From Candidatus Levybacteria bacterium RIFCSPLOWO2_01_FULL_42_15 (GTDB taxonomy: Bacteria > Patescibacteriota > Microgenomatia > Levybacterales > UBA12049): DNA of 64,000 nt. Below are positions 606 through 40,507 of the stretch, piece by piece. The DNA lies in NCBI GenBank assembly GCA_001784055.1, contig MFOZ01000019.1, positions 18,593-82,592 of the forward strand. The letters are read 5' to 3'. The first letter of the stretch is position 1; each line of letters opens with the position of its first letter. Below the pieces are notes generated by a model. The model saw only the letters and a list, made by a program, of their open reading frames with translations, was not told the origin of the DNA and searched no databases. The translations under genes and the position numbers were made by a program.

Positions 606-609
606 ATAT

Positions 610-2214: not shown

Positions 2215-2235
2215 TTGTAATGCCTCGCAAGCAAA

Positions 2236-2963: not shown

Positions 2964-3845
2964 TTATATGTAGTCTTTTTCAATGAGGTAGTTTTTGAGT
3001 CCAATGTGCCAATCAGGCATTATATTTAGATTTAGATTTTTAAGGTTCTCATTTCCTAGAACGGAATAAAGTGGCCGTTTGGCCGGCGTATAATATTCTT
3101 TTGAAGTAATAGGTATAAGATGCACCTTTGTATTTGTAATTTTAAAAATTTCCTTGGCAAATGTATACCATGAGCATTCTCCAAGTGCAGAAGCATGATA
3201 GATGCCATAGCTGTCGGTTTTTATGAGTTTATGTATTTGTTTGGCTAAATCAACTGTATAGGTGGGTGCCAAAAACTGATCATTAACTACTCGTACATTC
3301 ATCTTCTCGTGTGCGAATTTTAACATTGTTTCAACAAAGTTTCCACCTTTTAACGAAGAGCCTTTAAGACCAAAAAGACCGCTTGATCGCAAGATAAAAT
3401 ATTTTTTACATATATATCTTGTAAAATATTCGCCCGTGAGCTTGGATAAACCATAGACGTTTAAAGGGCCTGGCGAATCAGTTTCTTTATAGGGAGTAGT
3501 TTTCTTTCTATCCAAGCCAAAGACATAATCAGTGCTGATGTAAACGAGCACACTATTTTGTTGCGAGCAATATTCTGCAAGATTTTTCTGGGCAAAAGCA
3601 TTTATAAGGAATGCTTTTTCAAGATTAGTTTCGCAATCATTAACTCGATGGTAGGCAGCAGTATTAATTACGATATCTGGTTTAATGCGATTAATGACCT
3701 GATTTATTGTATTCTTATCCACAATATCAATATCCTTGTGAGTCAAAGGGAAAAGCTGTATATCGGAGTCTTTGCTAAAAACCTTTATCAAATCAGTTCC
3801 AAGCTGTCCATTTGCTCCAATAACAGCGATGCGTAATTTACTCAT
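2964..3845 (-). CDS. RmlD-family NAD(P)H-dependent 4-keto-sugar reductase (dTDP-4-dehydrorhamnose reductase-like)
   Basis: N-terminal Rossmann motif MSKLRIAVIGANGQLG. RmlD substrate-binding-domain-like length and spacing (293 aa). TDYVFG and YGLSK (YxxxK) motifs. Confidence 0.8.
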   Translation of the reverse strand: MSKLRIAVIGANGQLGTDLIKVFSKDSDIQLFPLTHKDIDIVDKNTINQVINRIKPDIVINTAAYHRVNDCETNLEKAFLINAFAQKNLAEYCSQQNSVLVYISTDYVFGLDRKKTTPYKETDSPGPLNVYGLSKLTGEYFTRYICKKYFILRSSGLFGLKGSSLKGGNFVETMLKFAHEKMNVRVVNDQFLAPTYTVDLAKQIHKLIKTDSYGIYHASALGECSWYTFAKEIFKITNTKVHLIPITSKEYYTPAKRPLYSVLGNENLKNLNLNIMPDWHIGLKNYLIEKDYI

Positions 3846-4398
3846 GTTTTTTTAAGACTTTAGCGGGAACACCTCCTACTACGGTATTTGCTGGAACATC
3901 TTTTACAACCACAGCATTTGCACCTATTATGGCATTATCACCAATAACGACGTCTCCAATAACTTTTGCTCCTGTACATATTGTTACATTTTTCCCAATT
4001 TTGGCACCTATAGATCCCGGATAAACATTTGTTCCCACCATTAAAGGACCAAAAAGAGTAAGATTCTCTCCTGATGAGGCTGTATGCGTAATAATAATTC
4101 CTCGATAATGTAAATAAAAACCTTTTCCAATTATAACACGTGGATGAATATGAATGTCAAAAATGAAATAATTTATATAGAAATAGATTGGATATAAGAC
4201 ATATCCTAAATATCGAATAATGAAGAATTCATGGTTGTATAGATATTGCTCGATCCGGTACATGCAGATAAAAAGCATATTTGGATTATGAAATAAAATA
4301 GCAAATTTGAGAAAAATGTTTTTTTGTTTTTTGCCTAGATCGTGGGCATAGAAGAATCTTTTCCAGTCAGCGGCAATAACAGAAAATACTAAAATCAT
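3838..4398 (-). CDS. Left-handed beta-helix (hexapeptide-repeat) sugar O-acetyltransferase, CysE/WcaB-like
   Basis: C-terminal hexapeptide repeats (IGAKIGKNVTICTGAKVIGDVVIGDNAIIGANAVVVKDVPANTVVGGVPAKVL). N-terminal half resembles the serine-acetyltransferase-like alpha-helical domain. Confidence 0.7.
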   Translation of the reverse strand: MILVFSVIAADWKRFFYAHDLGKKQKNIFLKFAILFHNPNMLFICMYRIEQYLYNHEFFIIRYLGYVLYPIYFYINYFIFDIHIHPRVIIGKGFYLHYRGIIITHTASSGENLTLFGPLMVGTNVYPGSIGAKIGKNVTICTGAKVIGDVVIGDNAIIGANAVVVKDVPANTVVGGVPAKVLKKHE

Positions 4399-4413
4399 AG
4401 ATAGTCCTTTTCG

Positions 4414-5361
4414 TCAAGGTAATTTCTTAACCAAATCAATAATTGTTTCTTCAATTGTTATCTTTGGCGTAAATCCAAGCACATTTTTTGCTTTTGTGGT
4501 TATTATTCGATAAGATCGATCTTTTCTATCGTCTTGTTCAAAAATGATTTTTGGATGTATGGAAAAATGTTTCACCATGGTCTCTTGTACTAACGAAGTA
4601 ATATCTCGAACTCGAAAATTACCGAATCCAATATTGAATATTTGTCGTGCTATATTTTGTTTTGGTGCGGTTAGTGTCTTGTAATATGCTCTAGCTACGT
4701 CGTCAATGTTTATCAGCGGCCTCCACTGAAAACCTTTACAATAGACTCGAATATATCCATTTTTAAGTACACTTCTTACCATAGCATTGACAACAAGATC
4801 AAAGCGCATATTTGGTGAATAACCCAAAACAGTCGCCTTTCTAAAAATAACAACACAAAAATTTTTATCTGCTAACTCTAGAAGTTTTATTTCAGCGTTA
4901 TGTTTTGAAGTGGCATAATGTCCTAACGGGGTTATAGATTCTTGTTCGTTTTTGGGACCATCTTCTTTATCTATACCTTTATCGTATAAGGACGAGCTCG
5001 ATGCAAAAATAAAGCGCTTAACATTCAATTCTTTTGCCTTTTGTGCAAGAGCAATAGTAGCAAGTGTATTTACCTTTTTTGTTTCGTTTGGATCTTTATC
5101 AGAAGATGTTTCATTAGAAAACGCTGCTAAATGTATAATTGCAAAGATATTCTTAAGTAGCATAGGTTCTATTTTCCTAATGTCGTTTTGTATATATTCA
5201 AATTTTTTTTTGCATTGTCGAGGAATTGGTCCGGTAAAAGGGAGAATGTCGATTACGCGTACAGATAAGCCTTTTTTTAACAAATAGCTTACTAAAATTG
5301 ATCCGACGTATCCAGATCCACCGGTAATAAGAATCTTTTGTTGAGCTTGTGAAGTCTTCAC
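4414..5361 (-). CDS. SDR-family NAD-dependent nucleotide-sugar epimerase/dehydratase
   Basis: Motifs ILITGGSGYVGS (GxxGxxG) and YATSK (YxxxK). 315 aa. Confidence 0.8.
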   Translation of the reverse strand: MKTSQAQQKILITGGSGYVGSILVSYLLKKGLSVRVIDILPFTGPIPRQCKKKFEYIQNDIRKIEPMLLKNIFAIIHLAAFSNETSSDKDPNETKKVNTLATIALAQKAKELNVKRFIFASSSSLYDKGIDKEDGPKNEQESITPLGHYATSKHNAEIKLLELADKNFCVVIFRKATVLGYSPNMRFDLVVNAMVRSVLKNGYIRVYCKGFQWRPLINIDDVARAYYKTLTAPKQNIARQIFNIGFGNFRVRDITSLVQETMVKHFSIHPKIIFEQDDRKDRSYRIITTKAKNVLGFTPKITIEETIIDLVKKLP

Positions 5362-6575
5362 TGTGATATGGGATTTAGAGTAACTTTTGGAACATAGAGA
5401 ATAGCGTTATCGTGATACTTTTTACCTCGCAATTCTTTAATTTTCTTAACAATTTCTTTATAAAAATTCCACGACATAATAATAATATGAAGATTTCCTT
5501 TTTCTTTTTGTAAGAGTTCGGGAGACTCTATTGAGATATTTCTTCCCGGAGTAACAAATCCCCATTTTAGAGGATTGTCATCGACGATGTATTCTAGATT
5601 GAGCTTAAAATAATTAAGCATAGTATTTCCTTTAGCAGATGCTCCATATCCAATAACTCTCTCTCCCCTTTTTTTAAAATCCGAAACGAGTTTACGAAGG
5701 TTATTTCGATTTTCTGCTACATTTTTGGCAAAGCGTTTGTAGGTTTGGATATCAAACAACCCACTTTCTTTCTCTTTTTGTATTAATGTAGTAACTTTGT
5801 CTGAATGAGAACTGATGCCCTTTTTTAGGAAGAAACGAATACTACCGCCATGAATAGGAGTTTGGATTAAATCAACAATGTGGAATCTCGAACGTGAAGC
5901 AAGCATAGCAAAAGAGTTGATCAGGAAATATGAAAGATGTTCGTGGTAGACCGTATCGAACTCATTAGATTTAATCATATTATTGCCGTAGGGAAACTCA
6001 AGTATCAAAATACCATCATCTTCCAAAGCCAAGAAACAAGCGAAAAGGAATCTATCAATTCGATCGACATGAGCAAATACATTGGTTCCCGTAATAAGAT
6101 TAAATTTCTTTCCAAGTTTTTTAGCTACTTTTTTGCTCCAGTAGTCAACAATTACAGAAATATTTTTCTTAATAGTAATTTCTCGTAAGTTTCCTGCCGG
6201 ATCAACTCCATACACATCGCACCCCAGTTCTTTAAAAAATTCCAATTGCGTTCCATCGTTGCAAGCAATGTCCAATACTCGTATTTTTTTCTTTTTCACT
6301 CGGGCTACAGCGTCTTTTGCCAACTCTTTACAATGATTTTGGAAGGTTTCTGTTGTTCCGCTGACATAGAGGTAGTTTTTAAACATTAATGCCGGTTTTA
6401 TTACGACACTAAGCATGCTATGGAAGCAGTTTTGGCATAATAATACTTCAAGAGGATATTCTTGCAATTTTTCCTCCTTTTTATGATAGCTATTCGCAAG
6501 TGGCTGCTTACCCAAATTGAGATATAAGAACAAGTTTTTTGCTCCGCAGCAGCGGCACCTTGTGGCTTTTTTCAT
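5358..6575 (-). CDS. NDP-sugar C-methyltransferase family protein (TylCIII-like: N-terminal Zn-ribbon + class I SAM MTase + C-methyltransferase C-terminal domain)
   Basis: N-terminal CxxC...CxxC zinc ribbon (CRCCGAKNL...CQNCFH). Central SAM-binding region (VLDIACNDGTQLEFF). About 400 aa, as in sugar C3/C5 C-methyltransferases. Confidence 0.65.
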   Translation of the reverse strand: MKKATRCRCCGAKNLFLYLNLGKQPLANSYHKKEEKLQEYPLEVLLCQNCFHSMLSVVIKPALMFKNYLYVSGTTETFQNHCKELAKDAVARVKKKKIRVLDIACNDGTQLEFFKELGCDVYGVDPAGNLREITIKKNISVIVDYWSKKVAKKLGKKFNLITGTNVFAHVDRIDRFLFACFLALEDDGILILEFPYGNNMIKSNEFDTVYHEHLSYFLINSFAMLASRSRFHIVDLIQTPIHGGSIRFFLKKGISSHSDKVTTLIQKEKESGLFDIQTYKRFAKNVAENRNNLRKLVSDFKKRGERVIGYGASAKGNTMLNYFKLNLEYIVDDNPLKWGFVTPGRNISIESPELLQKEKGNLHIIIMSWNFYKEIVKKIKELRGKKYHDNAILYVPKVTLNPISQ

Positions 6576-7129
6576 ACGAAAGCTGGATTTTTTTGATATT
6601 CTGCAAAGGTCATACCGCCTCGATCTCTTGTTGAGAGGATTGGATCATTAAATGGCCAGGTGATGGCGAGGTTTTTATCATTCCATAACAATATTTTCTC
6701 GGATAAAGGTGTATAAAATCCTGTGAACTTATATAGTAATTCAGCGGTATCACTAAGGACGGCAAATCCAAAGGCAAACCCAACAGGAACGAAGAGTTGT
6801 TTTTTATTTTCCGCAGATAACTCAATGGTAAACCATTTTCCAAATGTTGGCGATTTTATTTGTAGATCAACAGCGACACAAAATGCTTTTCCATAGATGC
6901 ATCGGATGAGTTTGGTAACAGGAGCTTCCATATTTTGAAAATGGAGACCGCGAAGAACTTTGTATTTTGATCTGGAATGAACTTCCTGGACAAATGTAAG
7001 GTCAAGACCGGCTTTTTGAAAATCACGTTTATGCCAAGACTCAATCAGAAATCCCCGTTCATCTTGAAAGTAGTCGATTTCTATGACAATTAAATCTTTC
7101 AAAGGAGTTTCTATAAGCCTCGTTTTCAT
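6572..7129 (-). CDS. RmlC-like cupin nucleotide-sugar 3,5-epimerase
   Basis: Conserved FxDxRGxF...LRGLHFQ block (FQDERGFLIESWH...KVLRGLHFQ). The ORF track extends to 7294, but the internal Met at 7129 gives the canonical ~186-aa size and frees a divergent promoter region. Confidence 0.7.
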   Translation of the reverse strand: MKTRLIETPLKDLIVIEIDYFQDERGFLIESWHKRDFQKAGLDLTFVQEVHSRSKYKVLRGLHFQNMEAPVTKLIRCIYGKAFCVAVDLQIKSPTFGKWFTIELSAENKKQLFVPVGFAFGFAVLSDTAELLYKFTGFYTPLSEKILLWNDKNLAITWPFNDPILSTRDRGGMTFAEYQKNPAFV

Positions 7130-7169
7130 CCTGTCAATTCTCCCATATCGCTTCTTATGATACAATATC

Positions 7170-8180
7170 TTGGAATTTATGGCAAAATCATCGGATAATC
7201 CTTTAGTGTCAATTATTATTCCTTTGCACTGGGGCTTGAAACCGGAAAATTTTCCCCGGTTTCTCACTGATTTAAAAAAATACGACAAGCTCAAATACCA
7301 ACACTACGAGATTCTTGTTGTGACAGATAAGCCAATTGTTCCTGTTATCACAGGAAAGAAGGTTCGTTGTCTCGTAATGAATATAAATCATCCAACTACT
7401 GGGACAGAAAAACGTGATTTTGCTCTGCCTTTTGTAAAAGGCGAGATCTGCGCTTTTATAGATGATGATGCATATCCTGATTCCAACTGGCTTACCAATG
7501 CGATTCCTTGGTTTAAATACGAGAGAATCGTAGCGGTTGGTGGTCCAGGAGTTACTCCTCTTGAAGATTCGTTCTGGCAAAAGATAGGAGGATATGCTAT
7601 TGAGTCATATTTTTGTAGCGGCAATATTCAATACCGTTTTTATCCCACATTTGAACGCTTCAGTAAAGATCAACCTGGATATAATTTGTTGGTTCGGACA
7701 TCTGTTTTAAAGAAAGTAAAAGGATGGGGAACAACATTCTACGGAGGGGAAGATACAGTTCTTTGTATAAAATTATTAAAGTTTGGAAAAATTCTTCATG
7801 ACCCTAATATTATTGTATATCACCATCGTCGAACATTTCCTTTTGGACATCTAAAACAAATTGGTAGTGTAGGATTACATAGGGGATACTTTTTTAAGAA
7901 GTATCCGCAGACCTCGCGAGGCACTTTCTATCTTCTGCCAACGATTTTAACACTGGGATTTATAAGCGGAATTGTATTAGTAGTGCGTTTTCCTCAATTA
8001 TTTGCTTTGCCATTTGTCTTAGTATTTTTATTTTTTCTTTTACTTGGTACAATCTCGGTCTACCGACATAAAGTCGATATTACGAGTTCTCTCATAGCAA
8101 GCATTGCTATTATGATGACACATATGTCATATGGCGTTTTTTTTGTAAAAGGTTTATTAACGCACCACTTAAATAAGTAA
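7170..8180 (+). CDS. Glycosyltransferase family 2 with C-terminal transmembrane segment
   Basis: GT2 motifs VSIIIPLH...DDDAYPD. Hydrophobic C-terminus with about 3 TM helices. Confidence 0.75.
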   Translation: MEFMAKSSDNPLVSIIIPLHWGLKPENFPRFLTDLKKYDKLKYQHYEILVVTDKPIVPVITGKKVRCLVMNINHPTTGTEKRDFALPFVKGEICAFIDDDAYPDSNWLTNAIPWFKYERIVAVGGPGVTPLEDSFWQKIGGYAIESYFCSGNIQYRFYPTFERFSKDQPGYNLLVRTSVLKKVKGWGTTFYGGEDTVLCIKLLKFGKILHDPNIIVYHHRRTFPFGHLKQIGSVGLHRGYFFKKYPQTSRGTFYLLPTILTLGFISGIVLVVRFPQLFALPFVLVFLFFLLLGTISVYRHKVDITSSLIASIAIMMTHMSYGVFFVKGLLTHHLNK

Positions 8181-8187
8181 GGGAAGT

Positions 8188-9204
8188 ATGCATCTGCCAA
8201 AGATTACATGTTGTGTTAGGACGTATAATGAGGAAAAACGTATTGCAGAATGTTTAAGAGGTATATTTGGCCAAAATTATCCTAGACAACTTTTGGAAGT
8301 AATCCTCGTAGATGATATTTCCACAGATAAAACAATCGCAATTGCAGAAAATTTTCCTGTAAAAATCTTAATCAATGAGACTGGCAATGCCGAGATATCA
8401 TTGATTAGAGGTTTTAAAGAATCAACTGGCACATTTTTTACAGTTGTTGATGCGGATATGTTCTTTCGGGGAAAAAATTGGTTCCAAAAAATGCTAAAAC
8501 CTCTCTTAGAAAACCCTGATATATCAGCCGCATTTACGGGATATTATTCCCATAAAAGAAACTCACTCATTACAAAATATTTGAATCTCGATTCGATCCA
8601 GCGAGACTTAGTGTATCAAATTTTTTCTCCAGGATTTAATGAAGTAATTAATGAGAAGAAAAACGGTTATTACGTTTGTCAATACTCTGTCAATAAAATT
8701 CCACCGCAGGTTCATGGTCTTTATAGAAGTTCTATTTTAAAAAAAATACTCGTTAATGAGATAGATTATCATGATATGATAAAGCTCGTGATCTTAGTTG
8801 ATAAAGGATATAAAAAATTTGCCTATGTTCCTCAGGCAGGATATTACCATTTCCATGTTGATTCTTTATTACATCTGGGGAAAAAACGAATTCGAAACAT
8901 AAAAGAGAGATATCTAGATTTTTATACAAATAAGAATCATTACAAATGGTTTGATGCATCAGATTCTGCTCGTATTAAAAGAACGTTTTTCCTTATCCTT
9001 GCTACATACTTGATATTGCCATTATGTTTGTTTTCACTGTCTAGAGCGTTAATACGGAGAAACCTACTCTATCTTCTTGAACCTGCAGTAACTTTTGTTA
9101 TCGTAAGTGCAATATTATACGCATTTTTATCAGATAAAAGAGGTAGAAAATTTATCATTCTTCAATTTGCTAAAATAGTACATCTACCTAAAGGAAAATC
9201 CTAA
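8188..9204 (+). CDS. Glycosyltransferase family 2 with C-terminal transmembrane segment
   Basis: GT2 N-terminal fold (ITCCVRTYNEEKRIAECL...VILVDDISTDKT; DADMFF). C-terminal TM helices. Confidence 0.75.
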   Translation: MHLPKITCCVRTYNEEKRIAECLRGIFGQNYPRQLLEVILVDDISTDKTIAIAENFPVKILINETGNAEISLIRGFKESTGTFFTVVDADMFFRGKNWFQKMLKPLLENPDISAAFTGYYSHKRNSLITKYLNLDSIQRDLVYQIFSPGFNEVINEKKNGYYVCQYSVNKIPPQVHGLYRSSILKKILVNEIDYHDMIKLVILVDKGYKKFAYVPQAGYYHFHVDSLLHLGKKRIRNIKERYLDFYTNKNHYKWFDASDSARIKRTFFLILATYLILPLCLFSLSRALIRRNLLYLLEPAVTFVIVSAILYAFLSDKRGRKFIILQFAKIVHLPKGKS

Positions 9205-9205
9205 C

Positions 9206-10381
9206 ATGATAGAGCAGGCTGTAATTTTGGCGGGCGGTCAGGGAAAAAGATTTCGTCCCCTCACATTGACTACTCCAAAGCCAATGATATTATTCCATGG
9301 AAAGCCTTTTTTTGCATACATTATAGAAATGCTTAAAAAAAACGGCATTAAAGAAGTAATTATTTTGACAGGTTATTTGCATGAAAAAATAGAGGATTAT
9401 TTTAAAGATGGACAAGAATTTGGTTTAAAAATAAAATATTCTTTTAGTCCAGTCGATGATGAAACAGGAACAAGAGTTAGAAAAGCAAAAAATTTAATTG
9501 CTGACACATTTCTTCTTTTGTATGGAGATAATTATTGGCCATTACAGTTGGATGAGCTTTTTAGGTTTTACAAAAAAATGAATACACAAGGATTAGTTAC
9601 GGTATACTCAAACATCGATAACTATACGAAAAACAACACTTTTGTTAACGATAAAGGACTGGTTGAGGTTTATGATAAAAGCCGACGAGCATCAGGATTG
9701 AACGGAGTAGATGTCGGATTTTTTATTTTGAGAAAAAGTATTTTAAAAAGTTTTCCGGAAGATAATTTCTCGTTTGAAAAAGTAATTCTGCCGAAAATGA
9801 TCGCGGAAAAACAACTTGCTGGATTCTTAACCTGCCATAAGTATTATGGATTAAGTAATTTAGAAAGAATACCGGTTATTGAAGAATTTTTTAAGCCAAA
9901 AAAAGTTATCTTGCTTGATAGGGACGGAGTAATTAATAAAAAACCTCCAAAAGCGGAATATATAAAAAATTGGAGCGAATTTAAATTTTTGCCGGGAGCA
10001 ATTGATGCGCTAAAGCTATTAACTAAGAAGGGATACCGAATTATTCTTATCTCCAATCAGGCGGGAATCGGAAGAGGAGCAATGACAGAAGAAGACCTTA
10101 AGAAAATTCATAAAAAGTTTTTGGAAGTATGCAGAAAAGAAGGAATTAATCTTACCGGAATTTATCACTGTCCCCATAATTGGGATGAGGGATGTTTTTG
10201 CAGGAAGCCAAAACCAGGCATGTTGTTTAAGGCGGCAGCTGATCATAATTTCGATCTAACAAAAACAATTTTCATCGGAGATGATGAGCGCGACGAGCAA
10301 GCAGGAAAAGCCGCTAATTGCAAAACTATATCATTGCACCAAGGACAAAATTTATTAGTTATTGTAAAAACTTTAGCGTAA
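9206..10381 (+). CDS. Bifunctional D-glycero-alpha-D-manno-heptose-1-phosphate guanylyltransferase (HddC-like NTP-transferase) fused to D,D-heptose-1,7-bisphosphate phosphatase (GmhB-like HAD)
   Basis: N-terminal sugar-1-P nucleotidyltransferase signature AVILAGGQGKRFRPLTLTTPKPM. C-terminal GmhB motifs (ILLDRDGVINKK; CPH...CFCRKPKPGM zinc site; GDDERD). Confidence 0.8.
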   Translation: MIEQAVILAGGQGKRFRPLTLTTPKPMILFHGKPFFAYIIEMLKKNGIKEVIILTGYLHEKIEDYFKDGQEFGLKIKYSFSPVDDETGTRVRKAKNLIADTFLLLYGDNYWPLQLDELFRFYKKMNTQGLVTVYSNIDNYTKNNTFVNDKGLVEVYDKSRRASGLNGVDVGFFILRKSILKSFPEDNFSFEKVILPKMIAEKQLAGFLTCHKYYGLSNLERIPVIEEFFKPKKVILLDRDGVINKKPPKAEYIKNWSEFKFLPGAIDALKLLTKKGYRIILISNQAGIGRGAMTEEDLKKIHKKFLEVCRKEGINLTGIYHCPHNWDEGCFCRKPKPGMLFKAAADHNFDLTKTIFIGDDERDEQAGKAANCKTISLHQGQNLLVIVKTLA

Positions 10382-10393
10382 AATGTTTTTATT

Positions 10394-11374
10394 ATGATTA
10401 TTTCGAGAACGCCACTTAGAATAAGTTTTGTTGGAGGAGGGAGCGATATCGCTTCTTTTTACCATCACACGTCTGGTGCTGTTGTTTCGACCGCAATTAA
10501 TAAATACATTTATATTGCAGTAAATAGGCAATTTGACGGAAGAATTCTTGTAAATTATTCAAAAACAGAAATTGTTACGAAAATTTCCGATATAGAAAAT
10601 AATTTAGTTAGAGAAGCGCTTAAATTAACAGGCGTAACGGGCGGAATTCACATAATATCCATAGCGGATATTCCTTCTGAAGGAACAGGAATGGGGTCAT
10701 CCAGTTCATATATTGTCGGACTTTTAAATGCGCTATATGCATATCAAGGAAAACATATAAATGCAGAAAAATTAGCAAAACAAGCATGTCAAATTGAGAT
10801 AGATATACTAAAAAAACCTATTGGTAAACAAGATCAATACATTGCCGCATACGGAGGGCTTCAACATATTAAGTTTAATTCAGATGAATCTGTTTATGTT
10901 GATCCAATTATTTGCAAGATGGAAACAAAAAAAACTCTTGAAAAGAGATTATTGCTTTTCTATACGGGTATTATGCGATCCGCAGACCCAATTTTGGCAA
11001 AACAAACAAAAAATATGGCATCCCTTACCGCAAAGAGGAAAATTATGAGTAAAATGGTACAGCTGGCAAGAGAGATGAGTAATGCGCTGAATAATAATAA
11101 ATTAAATGATTTTGGTAAGATGTTGCATGAAAATTGGATTTTTAAAACACAAATGGCACAGGGAGTTTCAAGTCTTCAGATTGATAGCTGGTATAAACTT
11201 GCCATAAAAAATGGAGCTATTGGCGGAAAGCTTTTGGGAGCGGGTGGGGGCGGTTTTCTCCTTTTTTATGCACCAGAAGAGAAACACGAGAAAATTATCA
11301 TCGCTCTTTCAGATTTATCCTATCAAAAGTTTTCATTCGAACCTCAAGGAAGTAAAATTATTTTTATTGATTAA
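10394..11374 (+). CDS. hddA: GHMP-family D-glycero-alpha-D-manno-heptose-7-phosphate kinase
   Basis: GHMP kinase motifs (PLRISFVGGGSDIASFY; GMGSSSS). Located between HddC/GmhB and GmhA. Confidence 0.8.
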   Translation: MIISRTPLRISFVGGGSDIASFYHHTSGAVVSTAINKYIYIAVNRQFDGRILVNYSKTEIVTKISDIENNLVREALKLTGVTGGIHIISIADIPSEGTGMGSSSSYIVGLLNALYAYQGKHINAEKLAKQACQIEIDILKKPIGKQDQYIAAYGGLQHIKFNSDESVYVDPIICKMETKKTLEKRLLLFYTGIMRSADPILAKQTKNMASLTAKRKIMSKMVQLAREMSNALNNNKLNDFGKMLHENWIFKTQMAQGVSSLQIDSWYKLAIKNGAIGGKLLGAGGGGFLLFYAPEEKHEKIIIALSDLSYQKFSFEPQGSKIIFID

Positions 11375-11377
11375 ATT

Positions 11378-12040
11378 ATGAAGAAGAAAAAAAGCGCGTT
11401 ACTCAGTCCAAAAGACTTTATAGAAGACTACATATTTGAGTTAAGTCGTTGTCTTAAATCTCTGGATAAAACAAAATTAGAGCTCATTATTGATGTTCTT
11501 ATTAATGCATACAAAAAAGATAAGAAAGTATTTATCTTAGGAAATGGCGGAAGCGCTACTACGGCCTCACATATGGCATGTGATTTGGGAAAGGGTACGT
11601 TGCAAAGAATATACGACAATACGGAGAGAAGATTTCGAGTTATTTCACTCACTGACAACGTGGCTATTATGACGGCTTTTGCAAACGATTTGAGTTTTGA
11701 TGATATTTTTATCCAACAGCTTAGGAATTTAGTTGAAACAGACGATGTTGTCATAGCGCTTTCCGGAAGCGGAAATAGCCCTAACGTAGTTAAGGCAATG
11801 GAATACGCTAAATTATGCGGAGCGAAAACTATCGGCATTCTTGGATTTAAAACTGGGGGAAAACTTGGGAATATGGTAGATTATTCAATTATTGCTGACA
11901 GCAACCATTATGGGCCAATTGAGGACATACAATTAATTCTTAATCATATGATCGCCGCATGGATTGCAAGAATTAAGAATATTCATGATGGGAAACCATA
12001 TGCAAAAAACGAGAATAAAAATAGCCCGTTTAAAAATTGA
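11378..12040 (+). CDS. gmhA: Sedoheptulose-7-phosphate isomerase (SIS domain)
   Basis: SIS-domain motif VFILGNGGSATTASHMACDL and size (220 aa) as in GmhA. Confidence 0.85.
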   Translation: MKKKKSALLSPKDFIEDYIFELSRCLKSLDKTKLELIIDVLINAYKKDKKVFILGNGGSATTASHMACDLGKGTLQRIYDNTERRFRVISLTDNVAIMTAFANDLSFDDIFIQQLRNLVETDDVVIALSGSGNSPNVVKAMEYAKLCGAKTIGILGFKTGGKLGNMVDYSIIADSNHYGPIEDIQLILNHMIAAWIARIKNIHDGKPYAKNENKNSPFKN

Positions 12041-12045
12041 TAAGC

Positions 12046-12858
12046 TTATCTAAAGAGATAAAAATATATATCTGATAAAGAAAATGGCTTATTATTCTTT
12101 TTAAATTTTTTAATGTCGGCCAAAGTAGGAAATGAAAAGTATTGCTTTTCATTTGGATGAAATCGGGCAAAAATTTCGATTTTATTGCTCGTTATATTCT
12201 TTAAAGCTTTTATCGTAGGGCCAATACTCTTATCAAATCCAAGAATATAGTTTTTAAATAAGGAATTGTTTTTAATTAAAGGAATAATTTCTTGATAAAC
12301 GACATTTCCTTGGTCTACTTTCGGTGTCATGAAATGAATGCTTACTCCAAACTCTTTTTCATTATAAAACATGGCCCAAAAAACTGGCAATACTCCGCCA
12401 TATTTTGGCAAAAGCGCAGTATGTCTATTAATGCATGCAATTTGAGGTAATTCTAAAAGATTTTTTTTAAATATCTGTCCCGAAGAAGAAATAATAATAT
12501 CAATATTTAATTTTCTTAAATAAGCAAGATGTTTACGGCTGTTAACATTATCTATTTTCACATACGGAACGTGAAATATGCGAGCAATTGATTGTACGGA
12601 GTATGTATTTTTTATTTGTATCTTATCCAAAAGATTTCTCACAAAACTCAATACTGCTATGCTAATAAAACCGAGGGTGCCCCATAAATGATATTGTTCA
12701 AGTAAGTAGTATGGAAATCCTTTTTTATAAATTTCCTTTAAGACGGTAACCCCAATAATTTTAAATTCCTTATCTGGTAGCTTTTGGAACAATCCTAAAA
12801 AATAATGAGGATGGAAAAGATTTTCTTCTGTAAGAATAAGATAGATTCGTTTTTTCAT
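12046..12858 (-). CDS. Formyltransferase-family protein (sugar N-formyltransferase-like)
   Basis: Fmt/PurN-type catalytic block INRHTALLPKYGGVLPVFWA (HxSLLPxxRG-like). 270 aa. Sits next to a sugar aminotransferase. Confidence 0.6.
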   Translation of the reverse strand: MKKRIYLILTEENLFHPHYFLGLFQKLPDKEFKIIGVTVLKEIYKKGFPYYLLEQYHLWGTLGFISIAVLSFVRNLLDKIQIKNTYSVQSIARIFHVPYVKIDNVNSRKHLAYLRKLNIDIIISSSGQIFKKNLLELPQIACINRHTALLPKYGGVLPVFWAMFYNEKEFGVSIHFMTPKVDQGNVVYQEIIPLIKNNSLFKNYILGFDKSIGPTIKALKNITSNKIEIFARFHPNEKQYFSFPTLADIKKFKKNNKPFSLSDIYFYLFR

Positions 12859-13730
12859 TAAACAATTTTTCTACTTTTAAGATATTCCATGCAAGTCTGA
12901 AAGGAGAAATTAGCTAATAGGTGTTCAAACATATTGTTAACAGATATCTTATAGGGTAAAAAAAGTGGATTTTTTAAAAAACTTTCTTGCTCGTCTGGTA
13001 TATATTTTTTTGATTTGGATTTTGGCATAATGAGTTGCCAGTTGTGAATAAAAAGATTTGCTACTTCCCCCTTTTTGCTATATGCAGATAATTTTTTTGC
13101 ATAATACTCTTTTTTTAGAATGCTCCAGAAATAACTTGACCCAAAAGGAATGCCAAATCGAAATAAATTTTCTAAAGATATGCTACTTGGAAATGAAATA
13201 TCAGAAATGCTTGGATTGTAGGATTGATTTGCTACGGATACAGGTAGCTCATAAATGCCATCAAAATTATATATACGTCCTGAATTTCCATAAGTGGATG
13301 AAGAATAGAGAAAGCCCCAATCTTTTAAGATATTGTAACCCTCTTTAAAAAAAACAATATTTGGCGCCTGGAAGCCCTTTACGTGATACTTTTGCAACAA
13401 ATTTTTTGATGCTTCAAGTTCATTTTTCAGAATTTTTTCATTATCTATATAACTATGTGAATAGCCATGCCAACCTATTTCATGGCCTTCTGCTTGTATC
13501 TTTTTTAGTAATCCTGGATATAATTCTTCTAATTTAAATACAACAAAAAAGGTAATTTTCTGATTATATTTTTTTAACACATCTAAAACAAATTGTAACG
13601 CCGATACAATATAATCATTGTCAAGTTGTCGAAGCTTCGCATTTGATAAATTATACTTATTGATTTTTCTTGAAACCACCCAGGATTCAAAATCCATGCA
13701 AAGGAGGTGAGAAAAGCCATTTTTTTCCAT
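12858..13730 (-). CDS. Polysaccharide deacetylase (NodB-homology, DUF3473-type)
   Basis: N-terminal MDFESW (DVEDW-like) motif. GHEIGWHGYSH motif (NodB His-His metal site). Confidence 0.6.
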   Translation of the reverse strand: MEKNGFSHLLCMDFESWVVSRKINKYNLSNAKLRQLDNDYIVSALQFVLDVLKKYNQKITFFVVFKLEELYPGLLKKIQAEGHEIGWHGYSHSYIDNEKILKNELEASKNLLQKYHVKGFQAPNIVFFKEGYNILKDWGFLYSSSTYGNSGRIYNFDGIYELPVSVANQSYNPSISDISFPSSISLENLFRFGIPFGSSYFWSILKKEYYAKKLSAYSKKGEVANLFIHNWQLIMPKSKSKKYIPDEQESFLKNPLFLPYKISVNNMFEHLLANFSFQTCMEYLKSRKIV

Positions 13731-13750
13731 AATTGCCTTTCAACAAAAAA

Positions 13751-14533
13751 CTACTTTCGCATTATTACACAGTAGCTATAGGCGAATCGGTCATCATGAT
13801 CAAAAATATCGATAATAAAGCCAAACATATTGGTAGCAAAAAATATAAAAGGAGAAACCAAAAACAAAGCAATACGAATAATAATTGGCCCCTCGGCTAT
13901 TTTTCTTATAACATAATGATTAATCATTGATGCAATGGTTGTACCGAAGTAAGAATATGTATAAATGCGTTCAATGGTAAAGCCAGTTCGTTTTGCTAAA
14001 TATTGGTACCCGCCTTTAGTAAATCGATAGAAATCTTTTTCTATACCTCCATGATCTCTGTATAAAAATGGTGTACTCGTAATACAAAGACCACCTTTTT
14101 TTAATACTCGATAGGCTTCTGCAAAAAATTGTACCGGATCTTCGATGTGTTCCAAAACAGAATAATTATAATATACGTCAAATGAGTTTTTTTTAAATTG
14201 AAGGTCTAGCGCATTACATTCTACGTCGATTCTTGCTTTATCTTTAGCTTTTCCGTAAAGGATATGTGTTATCATTCCCAGTGATTCAATTATTCTTGCT
14301 TGTTTTGTGAAGTCTTCATCCCAACTGGAATAATCAGTAGCGATATATTCTTTTATCTTTTTATTTAATTGCAAAGCCCGTTCTTTTTTAACACAATTTC
14401 CGCAGCCGGTCTCAAGAACCCTTCCATAGAAATGTGAAATGAGTTCATCATTTTCCGCGTTTGCTTTTATCATACTAAGCCAATGTGGATAAAATGGGGT
14501 ATTTACCAAAAGCGTAAAAACAACACGAAACAT
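13751..14533 (-). CDS. Class I SAM-dependent methyltransferase with C-terminal transmembrane helices
   Basis: Motif I VLETGCGNC, then VLEHIEDP...LKKGGL. Hydrophobic C-terminal 60 aa. Confidence 0.7.
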   Translation of the reverse strand: MFRVVFTLLVNTPFYPHWLSMIKANAENDELISHFYGRVLETGCGNCVKKERALQLNKKIKEYIATDYSSWDEDFTKQARIIESLGMITHILYGKAKDKARIDVECNALDLQFKKNSFDVYYNYSVLEHIEDPVQFFAEAYRVLKKGGLCITSTPFLYRDHGGIEKDFYRFTKGGYQYLAKRTGFTIERIYTYSYFGTTIASMINHYVIRKIAEGPIIIRIALFLVSPFIFFATNMFGFIIDIFDHDDRFAYSYCVIMRK

Positions 14534-14623
14534 ATATCTATTATATTTCTAAACGTATCTAATCGCAACTTGCTCACTTTAATGATACAATTGGGTTTAA
14601 GTCAATGCAGTAGAATTGAAAAT

Positions 14624-15742
14624 ATGAAAAAAATAAACTTGTTCGAGCCATATTGGACGAATGAAGACCTCGATGCTGTAACAGGTGTAATTAAAAGCGG
14701 TTGGTGGAAAGAAGGACCGATTTGTGAAAAGTTGGAAGAAGAATTTTGTGCGTATACGAAAACAAAGTATGCCGTATCAGTAAATAGTGCTACTGTGGGA
14801 CTGGACTTAATTTTTAAAGCATATGGTATTAAAAATGGAGAAGTAATTTTGCCCGCATTGACTTTTGTCGCTACAGGACTGATCCCCTTATATAACGATT
14901 GCAAGGTTATATTTGCTGATATAGATGAAGCAACACTGACAATTGACCCAAAAGATGTCGTGAAAAAAATAACTTCTAAAACAAAAGCAATTATCGTACA
15001 GCATCAATCCGGATACCCCGTAGATTTGGATAGTTTTGAGCAATTTAAAAAAAAAGGAATTTTAGTAATTGAAGATGCGGCTCACGGCGCCGGAACTTTT
15101 TATAAGGGAGAGCATGTTGGTACCAGAAATCCTTCTGTTTTTTCATTCAATGTTGTAAAAAATATTGCAGCGTGTGAGGGGGGGATGGTTACGACAGATA
15201 ATAAGGATATGGCAGAGAAAATGATGACCTTGCGATGGTTTGGTATAGATCAATTTGCCTGGAAAAAAGAAAAAAAGAAACATTTATGGGATTATTCCAT
15301 CTCCATGGTTGGATATAAATATCATTTCAATGATATTTTTGCCTCACTTGCTCGTGTACAATTAAAAAGGCTTAATAAAACAAATAAAAAAAGAAAAGAA
15401 TTAGCTCAGAGGTATAATGATAATTTTTTAAATAGATCCCTTCCTGTAAGAATTTTACTTATCAATTCCCCGGATATAATTTCTTCTCGTCATCAATATA
15501 TTATTCGGGTTGACGAGAAGCATAGGGATTCTTTAATTAATTGGTTGACAGACCATAAAATAATATCAGGAGTACATTATAAACCGATAAACCTATATCC
15601 GATTTTTGGTGGACATGGACATACTCCTGTTACTGATAGGGAATGGGGAAAAATGGTAACATTGCCTTTGCATCCGAAAATGACATTTGAAGATGTCGAT
15701 CATGTTTGTGAAGTAATAGCTCGATATTTTAAGCAAAATTAG
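14624..15742 (+). CDS. DegT/DnrJ/EryC1/StrS-family PLP-dependent nucleotide-sugar aminotransferase
   Basis: Typical start MKKINLFEPYW...D, then AVSVNSATVGLDL and the FSFNVVKNI Lys region. The ORF-track start at 14483 is an upstream extension; the Met at 14624 matches the family N-terminus. Confidence 0.85.
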   Translation: MKKINLFEPYWTNEDLDAVTGVIKSGWWKEGPICEKLEEEFCAYTKTKYAVSVNSATVGLDLIFKAYGIKNGEVILPALTFVATGLIPLYNDCKVIFADIDEATLTIDPKDVVKKITSKTKAIIVQHQSGYPVDLDSFEQFKKKGILVIEDAAHGAGTFYKGEHVGTRNPSVFSFNVVKNIAACEGGMVTTDNKDMAEKMMTLRWFGIDQFAWKKEKKKHLWDYSISMVGYKYHFNDIFASLARVQLKRLNKTNKKRKELAQRYNDNFLNRSLPVRILLINSPDIISSRHQYIIRVDEKHRDSLINWLTDHKIISGVHYKPINLYPIFGGHGHTPVTDREWGKMVTLPLHPKMTFEDVDHVCEVIARYFKQN

Positions 15743-30133: not shown

Positions 30134-30137
30134 TTAC

Positions 30138-40482: not shown

Positions 40483-40507
40483 GGAAAAAAAGTGTTATGA
40501 TACCGCT

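What the first reader, a model, noticed from the sequence alone, without database searches (positions are those of the whole stretch)
9206..12040. Complete GDP-D-glycero-alpha-D-manno-heptose pathway embedded in the glycan island
GmhA (SIS), HddA (GHMP kinase) and an HddC-GmhB fusion are contiguous. By established biochemistry this yields GDP-D,D-heptose, the precursor of S-layer glycans and capsular heptoses. Heptose-containing surface polymers are not typically expected in ultra-small bacteria.
Basis: partly seen in the sequence, partly recalled or inferred. Interest (0 to 1): 0.6.

Follow-up and report, generated by a model that had tools for sequence, protein, structure and literature searches.

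The report
Divergent nucleotide-heptose synthesis operon in CPR bacterium
Three adjacent genes in a candidate-phyla-radiation bacterium carry all four enzyme activities needed to turn sedoheptulose-7-phosphate into a nucleotide-activated heptose for a surface glycan, but they belong to an untested sister branch of the known GDP-heptose enzymes, so neither the nucleotide (GDP or another) nor the exact sugar is settled.

Summary
ORFs 9206-10381 (nucleotidyltransferase fused to a GmhB-type phosphatase), 10394-11374 (HddA-like GHMP kinase) and 11378-12040 (GmhA-like SIS isomerase) are contiguous and form an operon with two upstream membrane-anchored GT2 glycosyltransferases. No HldE, HldD or GT9 heptosyltransferase is in the 64-kb window.

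A nucleotide-heptose route of the HddA (alpha-anomer) type is the best reading. However, every module scores below its NCBIfam equivalog cut-off and belongs to a coherent divergent clade.
- The transferase lacks the guanine-binding Glu80/ExEPLGTGGA motif of HddC. It has an invariant E-T-G-T-R loop instead.
- The isomerase has Asp and Glu where GmhA has the catalytic Glu65 and Gln172.

"GDP" and "D-glycero-D-manno" are therefore inferred, not shown.

The cassette is common in CPR metagenomes. It also occurs in Firmicutes, Acidobacteria, Nitrosomonadaceae and Thermoplasmata. There it usually shares an operon with a Cj1427-like dehydrogenase, an RmlC-like epimerase and a sugar C-methyltransferase. 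Homologues of these sit in the divergent operon next door, so the end product may be a tailored heptose.

A 630-bp in-frame deletion of the isomerase gene coexists in the natural population.

The parts
7179..8180 (+). GT2 glycosyltransferase (333 aa) with C-terminal transmembrane helices. It is the first gene of the five-gene operon and a candidate user of the nucleotide-heptose.
   Evidence: Pfam Glycos_transf_2. Hydrophobic segments lie at residues 248-323. A 7-nt gap separates it from the next gene. The start at 7179 follows the gene calls on L001-L006; the ORF listing gives an upstream TTG at 7170.
8188..9204 (+). Second GT2 glycosyltransferase (338 aa) with two C-terminal transmembrane helices.
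   Evidence: Pfam Glycos_transf_2, E = 3e-22. Transmembrane segments at 263-315. Its stop codon lies 1 nt before the fusion gene's ATG.
9206..9880 (+). N-terminal sugar-1-phosphate nucleotidyltransferase domain of the fusion protein (residues 1 to about 225). It is HddC-like in its sugar-binding half, and its nucleotide specificity is unresolved.
   Evidence: Pfam NTP_transferase. NCBIfam scores for MurU (103), archaeal GlmU (103), Man-1-P guanylyltransferase (99) and HddC (98) are all similar and all below cut-off. Residues 85-199 match Y. pseudotuberculosis HddC 6jq8 best and share the D-x-FSFE..LPK motif. The loop is S-P-V-D-D-E-T-G-T-R where HddC has E80-N-E-P-L-G-T-G-G-A. Arg90 is invariant in 40 relatives. 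The nearest structures by Foldseek are MurU (TM 0.86-0.89) and HddC (TM 0.84).
9899..10381 (+). C-terminal GmhB-type HAD-IIIA heptose-1,7-bisphosphate 7-phosphatase domain of the fusion protein (residues about 232-391).
   Evidence: NCBIfam GmhB NF006506 scores 164 bits (cut-off 178). The HAD-IIIA and histidinol-phosphatase domain models score above their cut-offs. It aligns to E. coli GmhB 3l8e/2gmw with DxDGx, (S/T)NQ, the C-P-H...C-x-C-R-K-P zinc loop and GDxxxD all conserved. In the AlphaFold2 model of the whole fusion, pLDDT is 95.2 and pTM is 0.90.
10394..11374 (+). HddA-like GHMP kinase (326 aa), the predicted heptose-7-phosphate anomeric (C1) kinase.
   Evidence: The best NCBIfam family is HddA NF049969 at 155 bits (cut-off 600); the next best is a fucokinase at 100 bits. 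The best PDB matches are 3k85, 4n3o and 4usk, all heptose-7-P kinases, with E = 1e-35 to 1e-39 over the full length. It is 31% identical to a canonical Bacteroidia HddA. The GHMP motifs PLRISFVGGGSD, GTGMGSSSS and GAGGGGF are present.
11378..12040 (+). GmhA-like SIS isomerase (220 aa), the predicted sedoheptulose-7-phosphate isomerase, with variant active-site residues.
   Evidence: Pfam SIS_2. NCBIfam gmhA TIGR00441 scores 103 bits (cut-off 209). The best PDB matches are all phosphoheptose isomerases, led by 1tk9 at E = 5e-21. The positions of E. coli His61 and His180 are kept. Glu65 is Asp and Gln172 is Glu.
11392..12021 (.). Segment missing in a naturally co-occurring allele. It is a 630-bp in-frame deletion of the isomerase gene between imperfect 14-nt direct repeats (11387-11400 and 12017-12030).
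   Evidence: An exact 120-nt deletion junction is present in contig L006 and an 80-nt junction in scaffold L001. The full allele is present in L002, L004, L005 and the window. L003 is ambiguous because of an N gap.
2964..7126 (-). Divergently transcribed five-gene operon: RmlC-type 3,5-epimerase (6572-7126), sugar 3-C-methyltransferase (5358-6575), Cj1427-like SDR (4414-5361), hexapeptide acyltransferase (3838-4398) and RmlD-type 4-reductase (2964-3845). These are possible tailoring enzymes for the nucleotide-heptose. This part is inferred, not established.
   Evidence: The epimerase and the reductase score above their NCBIfam cut-offs: rmlC 208 (cut-off 156), rmlD 306 (cut-off 224). The methyltransferase matches MtmC 4rv9 at 231 bits. 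The best PDB match of the SDR is 6vo6 at 102 bits, and it has no dehydratase motif. The SDR is 35-38% identical to SDRs encoded inside variant heptose operons in L013/L014, L018 and L024/L025. No RmlA or RmlB is in the window.

Best explanation
The five-gene operon at 7179-12040 makes a nucleotide-activated heptose and passes it to two membrane-anchored GT2 glycosyltransferases for a cell-surface glycan.

Proposed steps:
1. The SIS isomerase (11378-12040) converts sedoheptulose-7-phosphate to a heptose-7-phosphate.
2. The GHMP kinase (10394-11374) phosphorylates C1 to give the alpha-1,7-bisphosphate.
3. The C-terminal HAD-IIIA domain of the fusion protein removes the 7-phosphate.
4. The N-terminal nucleotidyltransferase domain of the same protein condenses the heptose-1-phosphate with an NTP.

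This is the logic of the GmhA/HddA/GmhB/HddC route, not the HldE (ADP, beta-anomer) route. The enzymes form a divergent, biochemically untested sister clade of the characterised ones. The nucleotide (GDP, CDP or another) and the exact heptose configuration are therefore open.

What is shown: family-level assignment of each domain, conservation of the phosphatase and kinase motifs, operon structure, and conserved synteny across phyla. What is inferred: substrate, anomer, nucleotide and glycan destination.
For: Family assignment:
- GmhB, HddA and GmhA are the top families in both NCBIfam and PDB searches.
- The sugar-binding half of the transferase matches HddC best and shares the FSFE motif.

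Pathway logic:
- An anomeric kinase plus a distal-phosphate phosphatase is the logic of heptose routes. Hexose routes use mutases (established biochemistry; pathway as in PMC10680097).

Synteny:
- The fusion, kinase and isomerase genes are linked in 11 further loci. These come from Levybacteria, Patescibacteria and two MAGs labelled Gammaproteobacteria (L007-L009, L017), Lachnospiraceae, Bacilli, Oscillospiraceae, Acidimicrobiaceae, Bacteroidia and Thermoplasmata.

Structure and operon:
- The AlphaFold2 model of the fusion has pLDDT 95 and pTM 0.90, with two packed domains.
- Tight gene spacing links the cassette to two GT2 genes with C-terminal transmembrane helices.

Absence of the alternative route:
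- No HldE-type genes are in the window.
Against: - All four modules score below the NCBIfam equivalog cut-offs.
- The transferase lacks Glu80/ExEPLGTGGA, the residue and motif shown to bind guanine in YpHddC (PMC6981941).
- The isomerase replaces the proposed catalytic base Glu65 with Asp and Gln172/173 with Glu (PMC7705670).
- No member of this clade has been assayed, and no solved structure is closer than about 30% identity.
- A deletion allele lacking the isomerase circulates in the population, so the pathway is not complete in every cell.
- The supply of sedoheptulose-7-phosphate could not be checked.
Confidence: 0.75

Rival explanations
1. Exactly. [quoted passage not shown]
For: - The transferase is as close to guanylyltransferases (GDP-mannose pyrophosphorylases 7whr and 7d72; HddC 6jq8) as to anything else.
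- Its sugar-binding half is closest to HddC.
- Every characterised HddA-type route ends in GDP (PMC10680097; PMC6981941).
- In the window the cassette's own operon contains only GT2 genes and no tailoring genes.
Against: - The guanine-binding Glu80 motif is absent in all 120 closest relatives.
- At the position of Ser53, which also matters for GTP preference in YpHddC, this protein has Leu (PMC6981941).
- The HddC model scores 98 bits here but 220 bits for a canonical fused HddC.
- The isomerase active site is altered.
- Relatives of this clade almost always carry 4-keto-sugar tailoring enzymes in the same operon.
Confidence: 0.3
2. The nucleotide-heptose is only an intermediate. The divergent operon at 2964-7126 oxidises it at C4 (Cj1427-like SDR), methylates C3, epimerises C3/C5 (RmlC-type) and reduces C4 (RmlD-type), possibly with acylation. 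The result is a branched, epimerised heptose that the glycosyltransferases use.
For: - The window SDR is 35-38% identical over 79-91% of its length to SDRs encoded between or beside the variant heptose genes in Thermoplasmata, Nitrosomonadaceae and Acidimicrobiaceae loci.
- Its best solved relative is 6vo6, which I recall to be Cj1427, the C. jejuni GDP-heptose C4-dehydrogenase. This identification is from memory and was not verified here.
- It lacks the dehydratase acid/base motif.
- A sugar C-methyltransferase lies within 8 kb of the variant cassette in 6 other loci, and an RmlC-like gene in 9 loci including the JGI contig carrying P0074.
- RmlC-like genes inside heptose operons also pass the rmlC threshold.
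- In those loci the fusion is the only RmlA-fold nucleotidyltransferase within 8 kb.
- No RmlA or RmlB is in the 64-kb window.
Against: - The window's epimerase and reductase pass the dTDP-rhamnose equivalog thresholds, and dTDP-rhamnose genes are common in Microgenomates (PMC9166423). RmlA and RmlB could simply lie elsewhere in the genome.
- The window's methyltransferase is only 31-36% identical to those next to the much more similar (61-81%) CPR cassettes, so it is not a strict ortholog.
- The two operons are divergent and separated by two GT2 genes.
Confidence: 0.3
3. This is not a heptose pathway. The divergent SIS, GHMP and transferase proteins act on a different keto-sugar phosphate, such as a hexulose or an octulose, and produce another nucleotide sugar.
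For: - All scores are below the equivalog cut-offs.
- Both proposed catalytic residues of the isomerase differ from GmhA.
- The transferase is equidistant from several specificities.
Against: - For three of the four modules the best family by a wide margin is the heptose enzyme.
- The GmhB domain keeps the zinc loop and the Arg-Lys pair that follows it.
- The sugar-binding half of the transferase matches HddC best.
- The four-activity combination is known only for heptoses.
Confidence: 0.08
4. The cassette is decaying or dispensable in this lineage, and the deletion allele marks ongoing loss. It would have little present function.
For: A 630-bp deletion that removes the isomerase is found in two independent assemblies.
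Against: - All three ORFs are intact in the window and in L002, L004 and L005, with 99.7-100% identical proteins.
- The catalytic motifs of the phosphatase and kinase are intact.
- The cassette is 78-86% identical to a Levybacteria genome, whereas the host's GlyRS is at most 65% identical to any other sequence. This indicates conservation or recent transfer rather than decay.
- The deletion is clean and in-frame. It looks like strain-level glycan variation.
Confidence: 0.05

Closest known systems
[quoted passage not shown]
   Same: The same four enzyme families appear in the same logical order: SIS isomerase, GHMP anomeric kinase, HAD-IIIA 7-phosphatase and RmlA-fold nucleotidyltransferase. 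The genes sit in a surface-glycan cluster. The best profile and PDB matches of three modules are these enzymes.
   Different: - Identity to the characterised enzymes is only about 30%.
- All scores are below the equivalog cut-offs.
- The transferase and phosphatase are fused.
- The guanine-binding motif is absent.
- The isomerase has Asp and Glu where GmhA has Glu65 and Gln172.
Yersinia pseudotuberculosis HddC (PDB 5xhw, 6jq8; PMC6981941)
   Same: It has the same compact MurU/HddC-type fold of about 225 residues (Foldseek TM 0.81-0.84). It shares the G-x-G-x-R motif and the D-x-FSFE..LPK motif in the sugar-binding half.
   Different: Glu80 and the E-x-E-P-L-G-T-G-G-A motif are replaced by S-P-V-D-D-E-T-G-T-R with an invariant Arg. 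Ser53 is replaced by Leu. The Arg aligns with Arg111 of the CDP-glucose pyrophosphorylase 1tzf. That alignment is weak (E = 0.57), and the identity of the residue is recalled from memory.
Canonical HddC-GmhB fusions, such as the Bacteroidia MAG loci L020 and L021
   Same: They have the same two-domain order and the same neighbourhood with HddA and GmhA.
   Different: The Bacteroidia proteins keep EEPEPLGTGGA and a canonical GmhA (H...E, Q-E-x-H). They score 220, 442 and 195-210 bits on the HddC, HddA and GmhA models. Their phosphatase domain lacks the Cys-His-Cys-Cys zinc loop.
[quoted passage not shown]
   Same: It shares the first step (GmhA-type isomerase) and the GmhB-type phosphatase.
   Different: The kinase here is a GHMP-family enzyme, not a PfkB-family one. 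The transferase has the RmlA fold, not the cytidylyltransferase fold. No HldD equivalog or GT9 is in the window.
Campylobacter jejuni capsular heptose tailoring (Cj1427 C4-dehydrogenase, Cj1430 C3/C5-epimerase, Cj1428 C4-reductase; PMC10680097, PMC7949155)
   Same: An SDR whose best solved relative is 6vo6, a cupin epimerase and an SDR reductase are encoded next to the heptose-nucleotide genes.
   Different: The window epimerase is much closer to dTDP-type RmlC (180 bits to 1dzr) than to the C. jejuni GDP-heptose epimerases (67-77 bits). A 3-C-methyltransferase is also present, which is unknown in heptose pathways.

Membership tests
GmhA (sedoheptulose-7-phosphate isomerase) | Score at or above the NCBIfam equivalog cut-off (TIGR00441, 209.45 bits) | tested here: not met
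   The score is 103.4 bits. A canonical Bacteroidia GmhA scores 195.5 on TIGR00441 (just under the same 209.45 cut-off) and 210.2 on NF010546.
GmhA (sedoheptulose-7-phosphate isomerase) | Catalytic and zinc-site residues His61, Glu65, Gln172 and His180 (E. coli numbering; Glu65 as base and Gln173 with Zn in M. tuberculosis GmhA, PMC7705670) | tested here: not met
   The positions of His61 and His180 are conserved. Glu65 is Asp and Gln172 is Glu. The same pair occurs in all 11 window-type cassettes where both positions could be read; a twelfth, L018, also has the Asp but its second motif was not detected. All 3 canonical cassettes keep Glu and Gln. The changes are conservative, so activity is plausible but untested. 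The E. coli numbering rests on a sequence recalled from memory.
GmhA (sedoheptulose-7-phosphate isomerase) | SIS fold with phosphoheptose isomerases as the closest solved relatives | tested here: met
   Of the 15 PDB hits, 13 are phosphoheptose isomerases and 2 are DiaA. The best is 1tk9 at E = 5e-21. Pfam SIS_2 scores 67.7 bits.
[quoted passage not shown] | Score at or above the NCBIfam equivalog cut-off (NF049969, 600 bits) | tested here: not met
   The score is 155 bits. HddA is still the top family, ahead of a fucokinase at 100 bits. A canonical HddA scores 442 bits.
[quoted passage not shown] | GHMP motifs and full-length similarity to solved heptose-7-P kinases | tested here: met
   3k85, 4n3o and 4usk align over residues 2-321 with E = 1e-35 to 1e-39. 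The motifs PLR..GGG.D, G.G.GSSS and GAGGGGF are present.
[quoted passage not shown] | Phosphorylates C1 of heptose-7-phosphate to give the alpha-anomer | not testable with these tools
   This requires an enzyme assay with NMR of the product.
GmhB (heptose-1,7-bisphosphate 7-phosphatase, HAD-IIIA) | HAD motifs I-IV, the Cys-x-His...Cys-x-Cys zinc loop, and the Arg-Lys-Pro that follows it | tested here: met
   All of these align with E. coli GmhB 3l8e/2gmw and are invariant in 40 relatives.
GmhB (heptose-1,7-bisphosphate 7-phosphatase, HAD-IIIA) | Score at or above the NCBIfam equivalog cut-off (NF006506, 178 bits; alpha-specific NF050049, 250 bits) | tested here: not met
   The scores are 163.9 and 123.9 bits. 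The HAD-IIIA domain model (111.9, cut-off 44.6) and the histidinol-phosphatase domain model (138.6, cut-off 84.15) are passed.
HddC (heptose-1-phosphate guanylyltransferase) | Score at or above the NCBIfam equivalog cut-off (NF049965, 300 bits), with HddC as the top family | tested here: not met
   The score is 98.4 bits. HddC ranks below MurU (102.9), archaeal GlmU (102.5) and Man-1-P guanylyltransferase (98.8). A canonical fused HddC scores 220.1 bits and is clearly the top family.
HddC (heptose-1-phosphate guanylyltransferase) | Guanine-binding Glu80 within the E-x-E-P-L-G-T-G-G-A motif (PMC6981941) | tested here: not met
   Ser occupies the Glu80 position and the loop reads P-V-D-D-E-T-G-T-R. 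None of the 120 closest relatives has the canonical motif.
HddC (heptose-1-phosphate guanylyltransferase) | Sugar-binding half resembles HddC | tested here: met
   Residues 85-199 searched alone hit 6jq8 and 5xhw first (E = 5e-6), with the shared D-x-FSFE..LPK motif.
HldE-type ADP-heptose route | PfkB-family kinase fused to a cytidylyltransferase-fold adenylyltransferase, plus HldD and GT9 heptosyltransferases | tested here: not met
   None of these Pfam families is found in any ORF of 120 aa or more in the window. The rest of the genome was not available.

The most novel reading that the evidence does not exclude
The cassette may be the front end of a widespread, uncharacterised pathway found in CPR bacteria, Firmicutes, Acidobacteria, Nitrosomonadaceae, Acidimicrobiia and Thermoplasmata archaea. 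In this reading a heptose is activated on a nucleotide other than GDP. CDP is suggested by the RfbF-like T-G-x-R loop and by the uridine/cytidine-kinase-like third domain fused in some relatives. The heptose is then C4-oxidised, 3-C-methylated and 3,5-epimerised, giving a branched heptose not yet described in any glycan.
Probability: 0.2. Interest if true: 0.7.

Novelty: new variant of a known kind. Interest (0 to 1): 0.42.

Why it matters
The cell envelopes of candidate-phyla-radiation bacteria are almost unknown. These organisms are thought to live attached to host cells, so their surface glycans are likely points of contact. A heptose-nucleotide operon, sitting in a roughly 40-kb glycan island and varying between co-occurring strains by a clean deletion, points to a variable heptose-bearing surface polymer.

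More generally, the analysis shows that databases label thousands of these fused proteins only as "HAD-IIIA family hydrolase". They form a coherent clade in which both the base-recognition loop of the transferase and the catalytic residues of the isomerase differ from every assayed enzyme. One enzyme assay could therefore assign, or reassign, a nucleotide sugar for a large set of bacterial and archaeal glycan clusters.

Tried and rejected
- tRNA and Rfam scans of the window found nothing.
- The promoter and terminator scan of 6900-12400 gave counts equal to shuffled sequence and was not used.
- I first took the rmlC and rmlD equivalog passes of the divergent operon as excluding a heptose role. 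A control rejected this: RmlC-like genes lying inside variant heptose operons (L009, L024) pass the same threshold.
- I first counted L003 as a deletion allele. It only has a 100-N scaffold gap at the junction, so it was dropped.
- A tblastn of the fusion against plasmids found only distant fusions (31% identity or less). The Azospirillum context was uninformative.
- The single-sequence AlphaFold2 model of the SDR at 4414-5361 was unusable (pLDDT 39). Its structural neighbours were therefore not searched.
- The afdb50 library was unavailable.
- I could not verify that PDB 6vo6 is Cj1427. PMC7509852 and PMC7500870 are not held, and a text search for '6VO6' found nothing relevant. The identification rests on memory.
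- The Foldseek ranking of the fusion against the PDB does not discriminate nucleotide specificity. MurU, UDP-glucose pyrophosphorylase, GDP-mannose pyrophosphorylase, RfbF and HddC all lie within similar E-values.
- Literature searches found no assay of this fused clade.

Full report
**Observation**

They lie on the + strand and are separated by 12 and 3 nt.

Pfam gives the following:
- NTP_transferase plus HAD-type domains for the first ORF.
- GHMP_kinases_N and _C for the second.
- SIS_2 for the third.

The NCBIfam top hits are:
- GmhB at 164 bits, with HddC, MurU and related families near 100 bits for the N-terminal half.
- HddA at 155 bits.
- gmhA at 103 bits.

The closest solved structures are GmhB (4pnh, 3l8h, 2gmw), the heptose-7-phosphate kinases 3k85, 4n3o and 4usk, and phosphoheptose isomerases led by 1tk9. 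The only correction is that the gene order is fusion, kinase, isomerase.

**Context and organism**

The three genes follow two GT2 glycosyltransferase genes (7179-8180 and 8188-9204), with gaps of 7 and 1 nt. Both GT2 proteins have C-terminal transmembrane helices. This makes a five-gene operon.

It lies inside a glycan island of roughly 40 kb, which contains:
- Many GT1, GT2 and GT4 genes.
- A ManC-type Man-1-P guanylyltransferase.
- A WbaP-type initiating transferase.
- A PMT_2 (GT-C) protein.
- An ArnA/ArnB/ArnD-like trio.

A cell-wall and division (dcw) cluster follows the island.

Identical copies of the fusion protein occur on contigs from Rifle aquifer metagenomes ('ANAN16' scaffolds). 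The glycyl-tRNA synthetase in the window is at most 65% identical to any other sequence. Its named best hits are Woesebacteria, Microgenomates, Roizmanbacteria and 'Patescibacteria group'.

**The pathway assignment**

The phosphatase domain is a good GmhB. It aligns to E. coli GmhB with the DxDGx, (S/T)NQ, C-P-H...C-x-C-R-K-P and GDxxxD motifs intact, and these are invariant in 40 relatives.

The kinase has the GHMP motifs and aligns end to end with the three solved heptose-7-phosphate kinases.

The combination of an anomeric kinase with a distal-phosphate phosphatase is the hallmark of heptose-nucleotide routes (pathway as summarised in PMC10680097).

A GHMP kinase and an RmlA-fold transferase mark the HddA/HddC-type route. 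In the window, no ORF of 120 aa or more belongs to the PfkB kinase, cytidylyltransferase-fold or GT9 heptosyltransferase families, and none reaches the HldD equivalog cut-off. An HldE route is thus excluded for this locus. The rest of the genome could not be examined.

The AlphaFold2 model of the fusion is very confident (pLDDT 95.2, pTM 0.90). No solved structure spans both domains.

**Why this is not simply the canonical GDP-D,D-heptose pathway**

All four modules score below the NCBIfam equivalog cut-offs. As a control I scored a canonical cassette from a Bacteroidia MAG (L020). It gives 220 bits on HddC, 442 on HddA and 195-210 on GmhA. The window proteins and a Lachnospiraceae member of the same clade (L012) give 75-98, 138-155 and 103-113.

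The difference is qualitative as well.

- **Transferase.** In Y. pseudotuberculosis HddC, guanine is held by Glu80 of the motif E-x-E-P-L-G-T-G-G-A, and Ser53 also matters (PMC6981941). The window protein has Ser at the Glu80 position, Leu at the Ser53 position, and the loop P-V-D-D-E-T-G-T-R. All 120 closest database relatives carry the [DE]-T-G-[TS]-R loop and none has the canonical motif. Arg90 is invariant.
- **Specificity signals.** By profile, sequence and fold, the domain is equidistant from MurU (UTP), GDP-mannose pyrophosphorylases, a UDP-glucose pyrophosphorylase, RfbF (CTP) and HddC. When the generic N-terminal third is removed, the sugar-binding half hits HddC first and shares a D-x-FSFE..LPK motif with it. 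The sugar is therefore probably a heptose-1-phosphate, but the nucleotide is unresolved.
- **Hints away from GTP.** Two weak hints exist. First, the T-G-x-R loop resembles the M-T-G-G-R111 loop of the CDP-glucose pyrophosphorylase 1tzf; the alignment is weak (E = 0.57) and the residue identity is recalled from memory. Second, roughly 600-aa relatives carry a third, uridine-kinase-like domain.
- **Isomerase.** The positions of E. coli His61 and His180 are kept, but Glu65 is Asp and Gln172 is Glu. These are the proposed catalytic base and the Zn-associated Gln (PMC7705670). The same Asp/Glu pair is present in all 11 window-type cassettes where both positions could be read. All 3 canonical cassettes keep Glu/Gln. 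The isomerase variant and the transferase variant therefore travel together.

**Distribution**

The fused architecture is not rare. There are 3525 database proteins at E <= 1e-30 or better. The top 50 or so are 65-81% identical, and the named ones come from Levybacteria, Parcubacteria and Patescibacteria MAGs.

Species-representative genomes with the window-type cassette include Levybacteria (78-86% identity), other Patescibacteria, Acidobacteria, Lachnospiraceae, Oscillospiraceae, Bacilli, Nitrosomonadaceae and Acidimicrobiaceae. A Thermoplasmata archaeon also has it.

A CPR genome survey has already listed heptose-nucleotide genes in CPR (PMC9166423). The presence of such genes in a CPR bacterium is therefore not in itself surprising.

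**Partners**

In relatives, the variant cassette shares an operon with 4-keto-sugar tailoring enzymes. The clearest case is the Thermoplasmata locus L024, where all of these genes lie on one strand: GHMP kinase, SIS isomerase, SDR, the fusion (NTase-HAD-kinase), C-methyltransferase, RmlC-like epimerase, SDR, SDR, methyltransferase, split transketolase.

Further findings:
- RmlC-like genes lie beside the cassette in L009, L010, L013, L015, L017, L018, L024 and L025 and on the JGI contig that carries P0074.
- C-methyltransferases lie beside it in L008, L009, L010, L013, L024 and L025.
- A profile of the transferase domain finds no second RmlA-fold enzyme within 8 kb in these loci, except a fragment in L017.

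In the window the same families form the divergent operon at 2964-7126: RmlC, 3-C-methyltransferase, SDR, hexapeptide acyltransferase and RmlD.

Its SDR is 35-38% identical to the in-operon SDRs of L013/L014, L018 and L024. It lacks the dehydratase motif. Its best solved relative is 6vo6, which I recall to be Cj1427, the GDP-heptose C4-dehydrogenase. I could not verify that identification here.

Against the link:
- The window RmlC and RmlD pass the dTDP-rhamnose thresholds. The in-operon RmlC-like proteins of L009 and L024 pass them too.
- The window methyltransferase is only 31-36% identical to those next to the closest cassettes.
- rmlA and rmlB may lie elsewhere in the genome.

I rate the tailoring hypothesis at about 0.3.

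**Population variation**

Of six assemblies carrying the identical fusion protein:
- Three have the isomerase gene (L002, L004, L005).
- One MEGAHIT contig (L006) has an exact 120-nt junction for a 630-bp in-frame deletion (window 11392-12021). The deletion lies between 12/14-matching direct repeats and leaves a 10-codon remnant.
- One scaffold (L001) has the same junction over 80 nt.
- One (L003) is ambiguous.

The first step of the pathway is therefore present or absent between co-occurring strains. This is what one expects of a variable surface glycan, and it qualifies the word 'complete'.

**Verdict**

The locus is real, and a nucleotide-heptose synthesis operon of the HddA type is the best reading (confidence 0.75).

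The instance is one member of a large, coherent, unassayed variant clade. For that reason I file it as a new variant of a known kind and score interest at about 0.4.

Noticed in passing
window 11392-12021; L006 12086-12205; L001 around 12146: A clean 630-bp in-frame deletion of the GmhA-like gene, between imperfect 14-nt direct repeats, coexists with the full allele in aquifer metagenomes. Only a 10-codon remnant ORF is left.
   Followed up: yes
P0064, P0069, P0074, P0082, P0102 and others; L024 8001-9827: Relatives of the fusion of about 600 aa (58-61% identical), including one from a Thermoplasmata archaeon, carry a third C-terminal P-loop domain. It resembles uridine kinase or phosphoribulokinase (NCBIfam uridine kinase, 62 bits). 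It may bear on which nucleotide is used.
   Followed up: partly
L024 14633-16368; L025 13197-14953: A split transketolase (N-terminal and C-terminal halves as separate genes) sits in the same operon as the variant heptose cassette in the Thermoplasmata loci. It could supply sedoheptulose-7-phosphate or attach a two-carbon branch.
   Followed up: no
window 12046-15742 and 30123-31598: An Arn-like set is present: an ArnA-type formyltransferase domain protein, a polysaccharide-deacetylase (ArnD-like) protein, an ArnB-like aminotransferase (282 bits on the UDP-Ara4N aminotransferase model) and a PMT_2/GT-C transferase. This suggests a formylated amino-sugar carried on a polyprenyl phosphate.
   Followed up: no
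window 78-2940: An ATP-grasp protein (cut off by the window start), an acetolactate-synthase-like thiamine-diphosphate enzyme (412 bits, below cut-off) and a HAD hydrolase open the island, preceded by a PIG-L deacetylase on the longer contigs. The ThDP enzyme could be a YerE-like branched-sugar synthase (from memory).
   Followed up: no
window 15752-17263, 18847-21300, 26996-30133: Three large, multi-pass membrane proteins (503, 817 and 1045 aa) have no Pfam or NCBIfam match. They are candidate polymerases, flippases or GT-C enzymes of the island.
   Followed up: partly
window 9206-12040 versus 40475-41893: The heptose cassette is 78-86% identical to a Levybacteria genome. The host's glycyl-tRNA synthetase is at most 65% identical to any sequence in the database. 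The cassette is either unusually conserved or has been exchanged laterally among Microgenomates.
   Followed up: partly
window 6572-7294: The mechanical ORF for the RmlC-type epimerase (240 aa, TTG start) overlaps the start of the divergent GT2 gene. Gene calls on other contigs and the profile match indicate a 185-197 aa protein starting near 7126-7165. This leaves an intergenic region of only about 15-50 bp to serve both divergent operons.
   Followed up: partly
window 52263-53656: In the cell-wall cluster, a GlmU-like nucleotidyltransferase ORF is followed by a separate, overlapping GNAT acetyltransferase ORF. The usual arrangement is a fused left-handed beta-helix acetyltransferase domain.
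   Followed up: no
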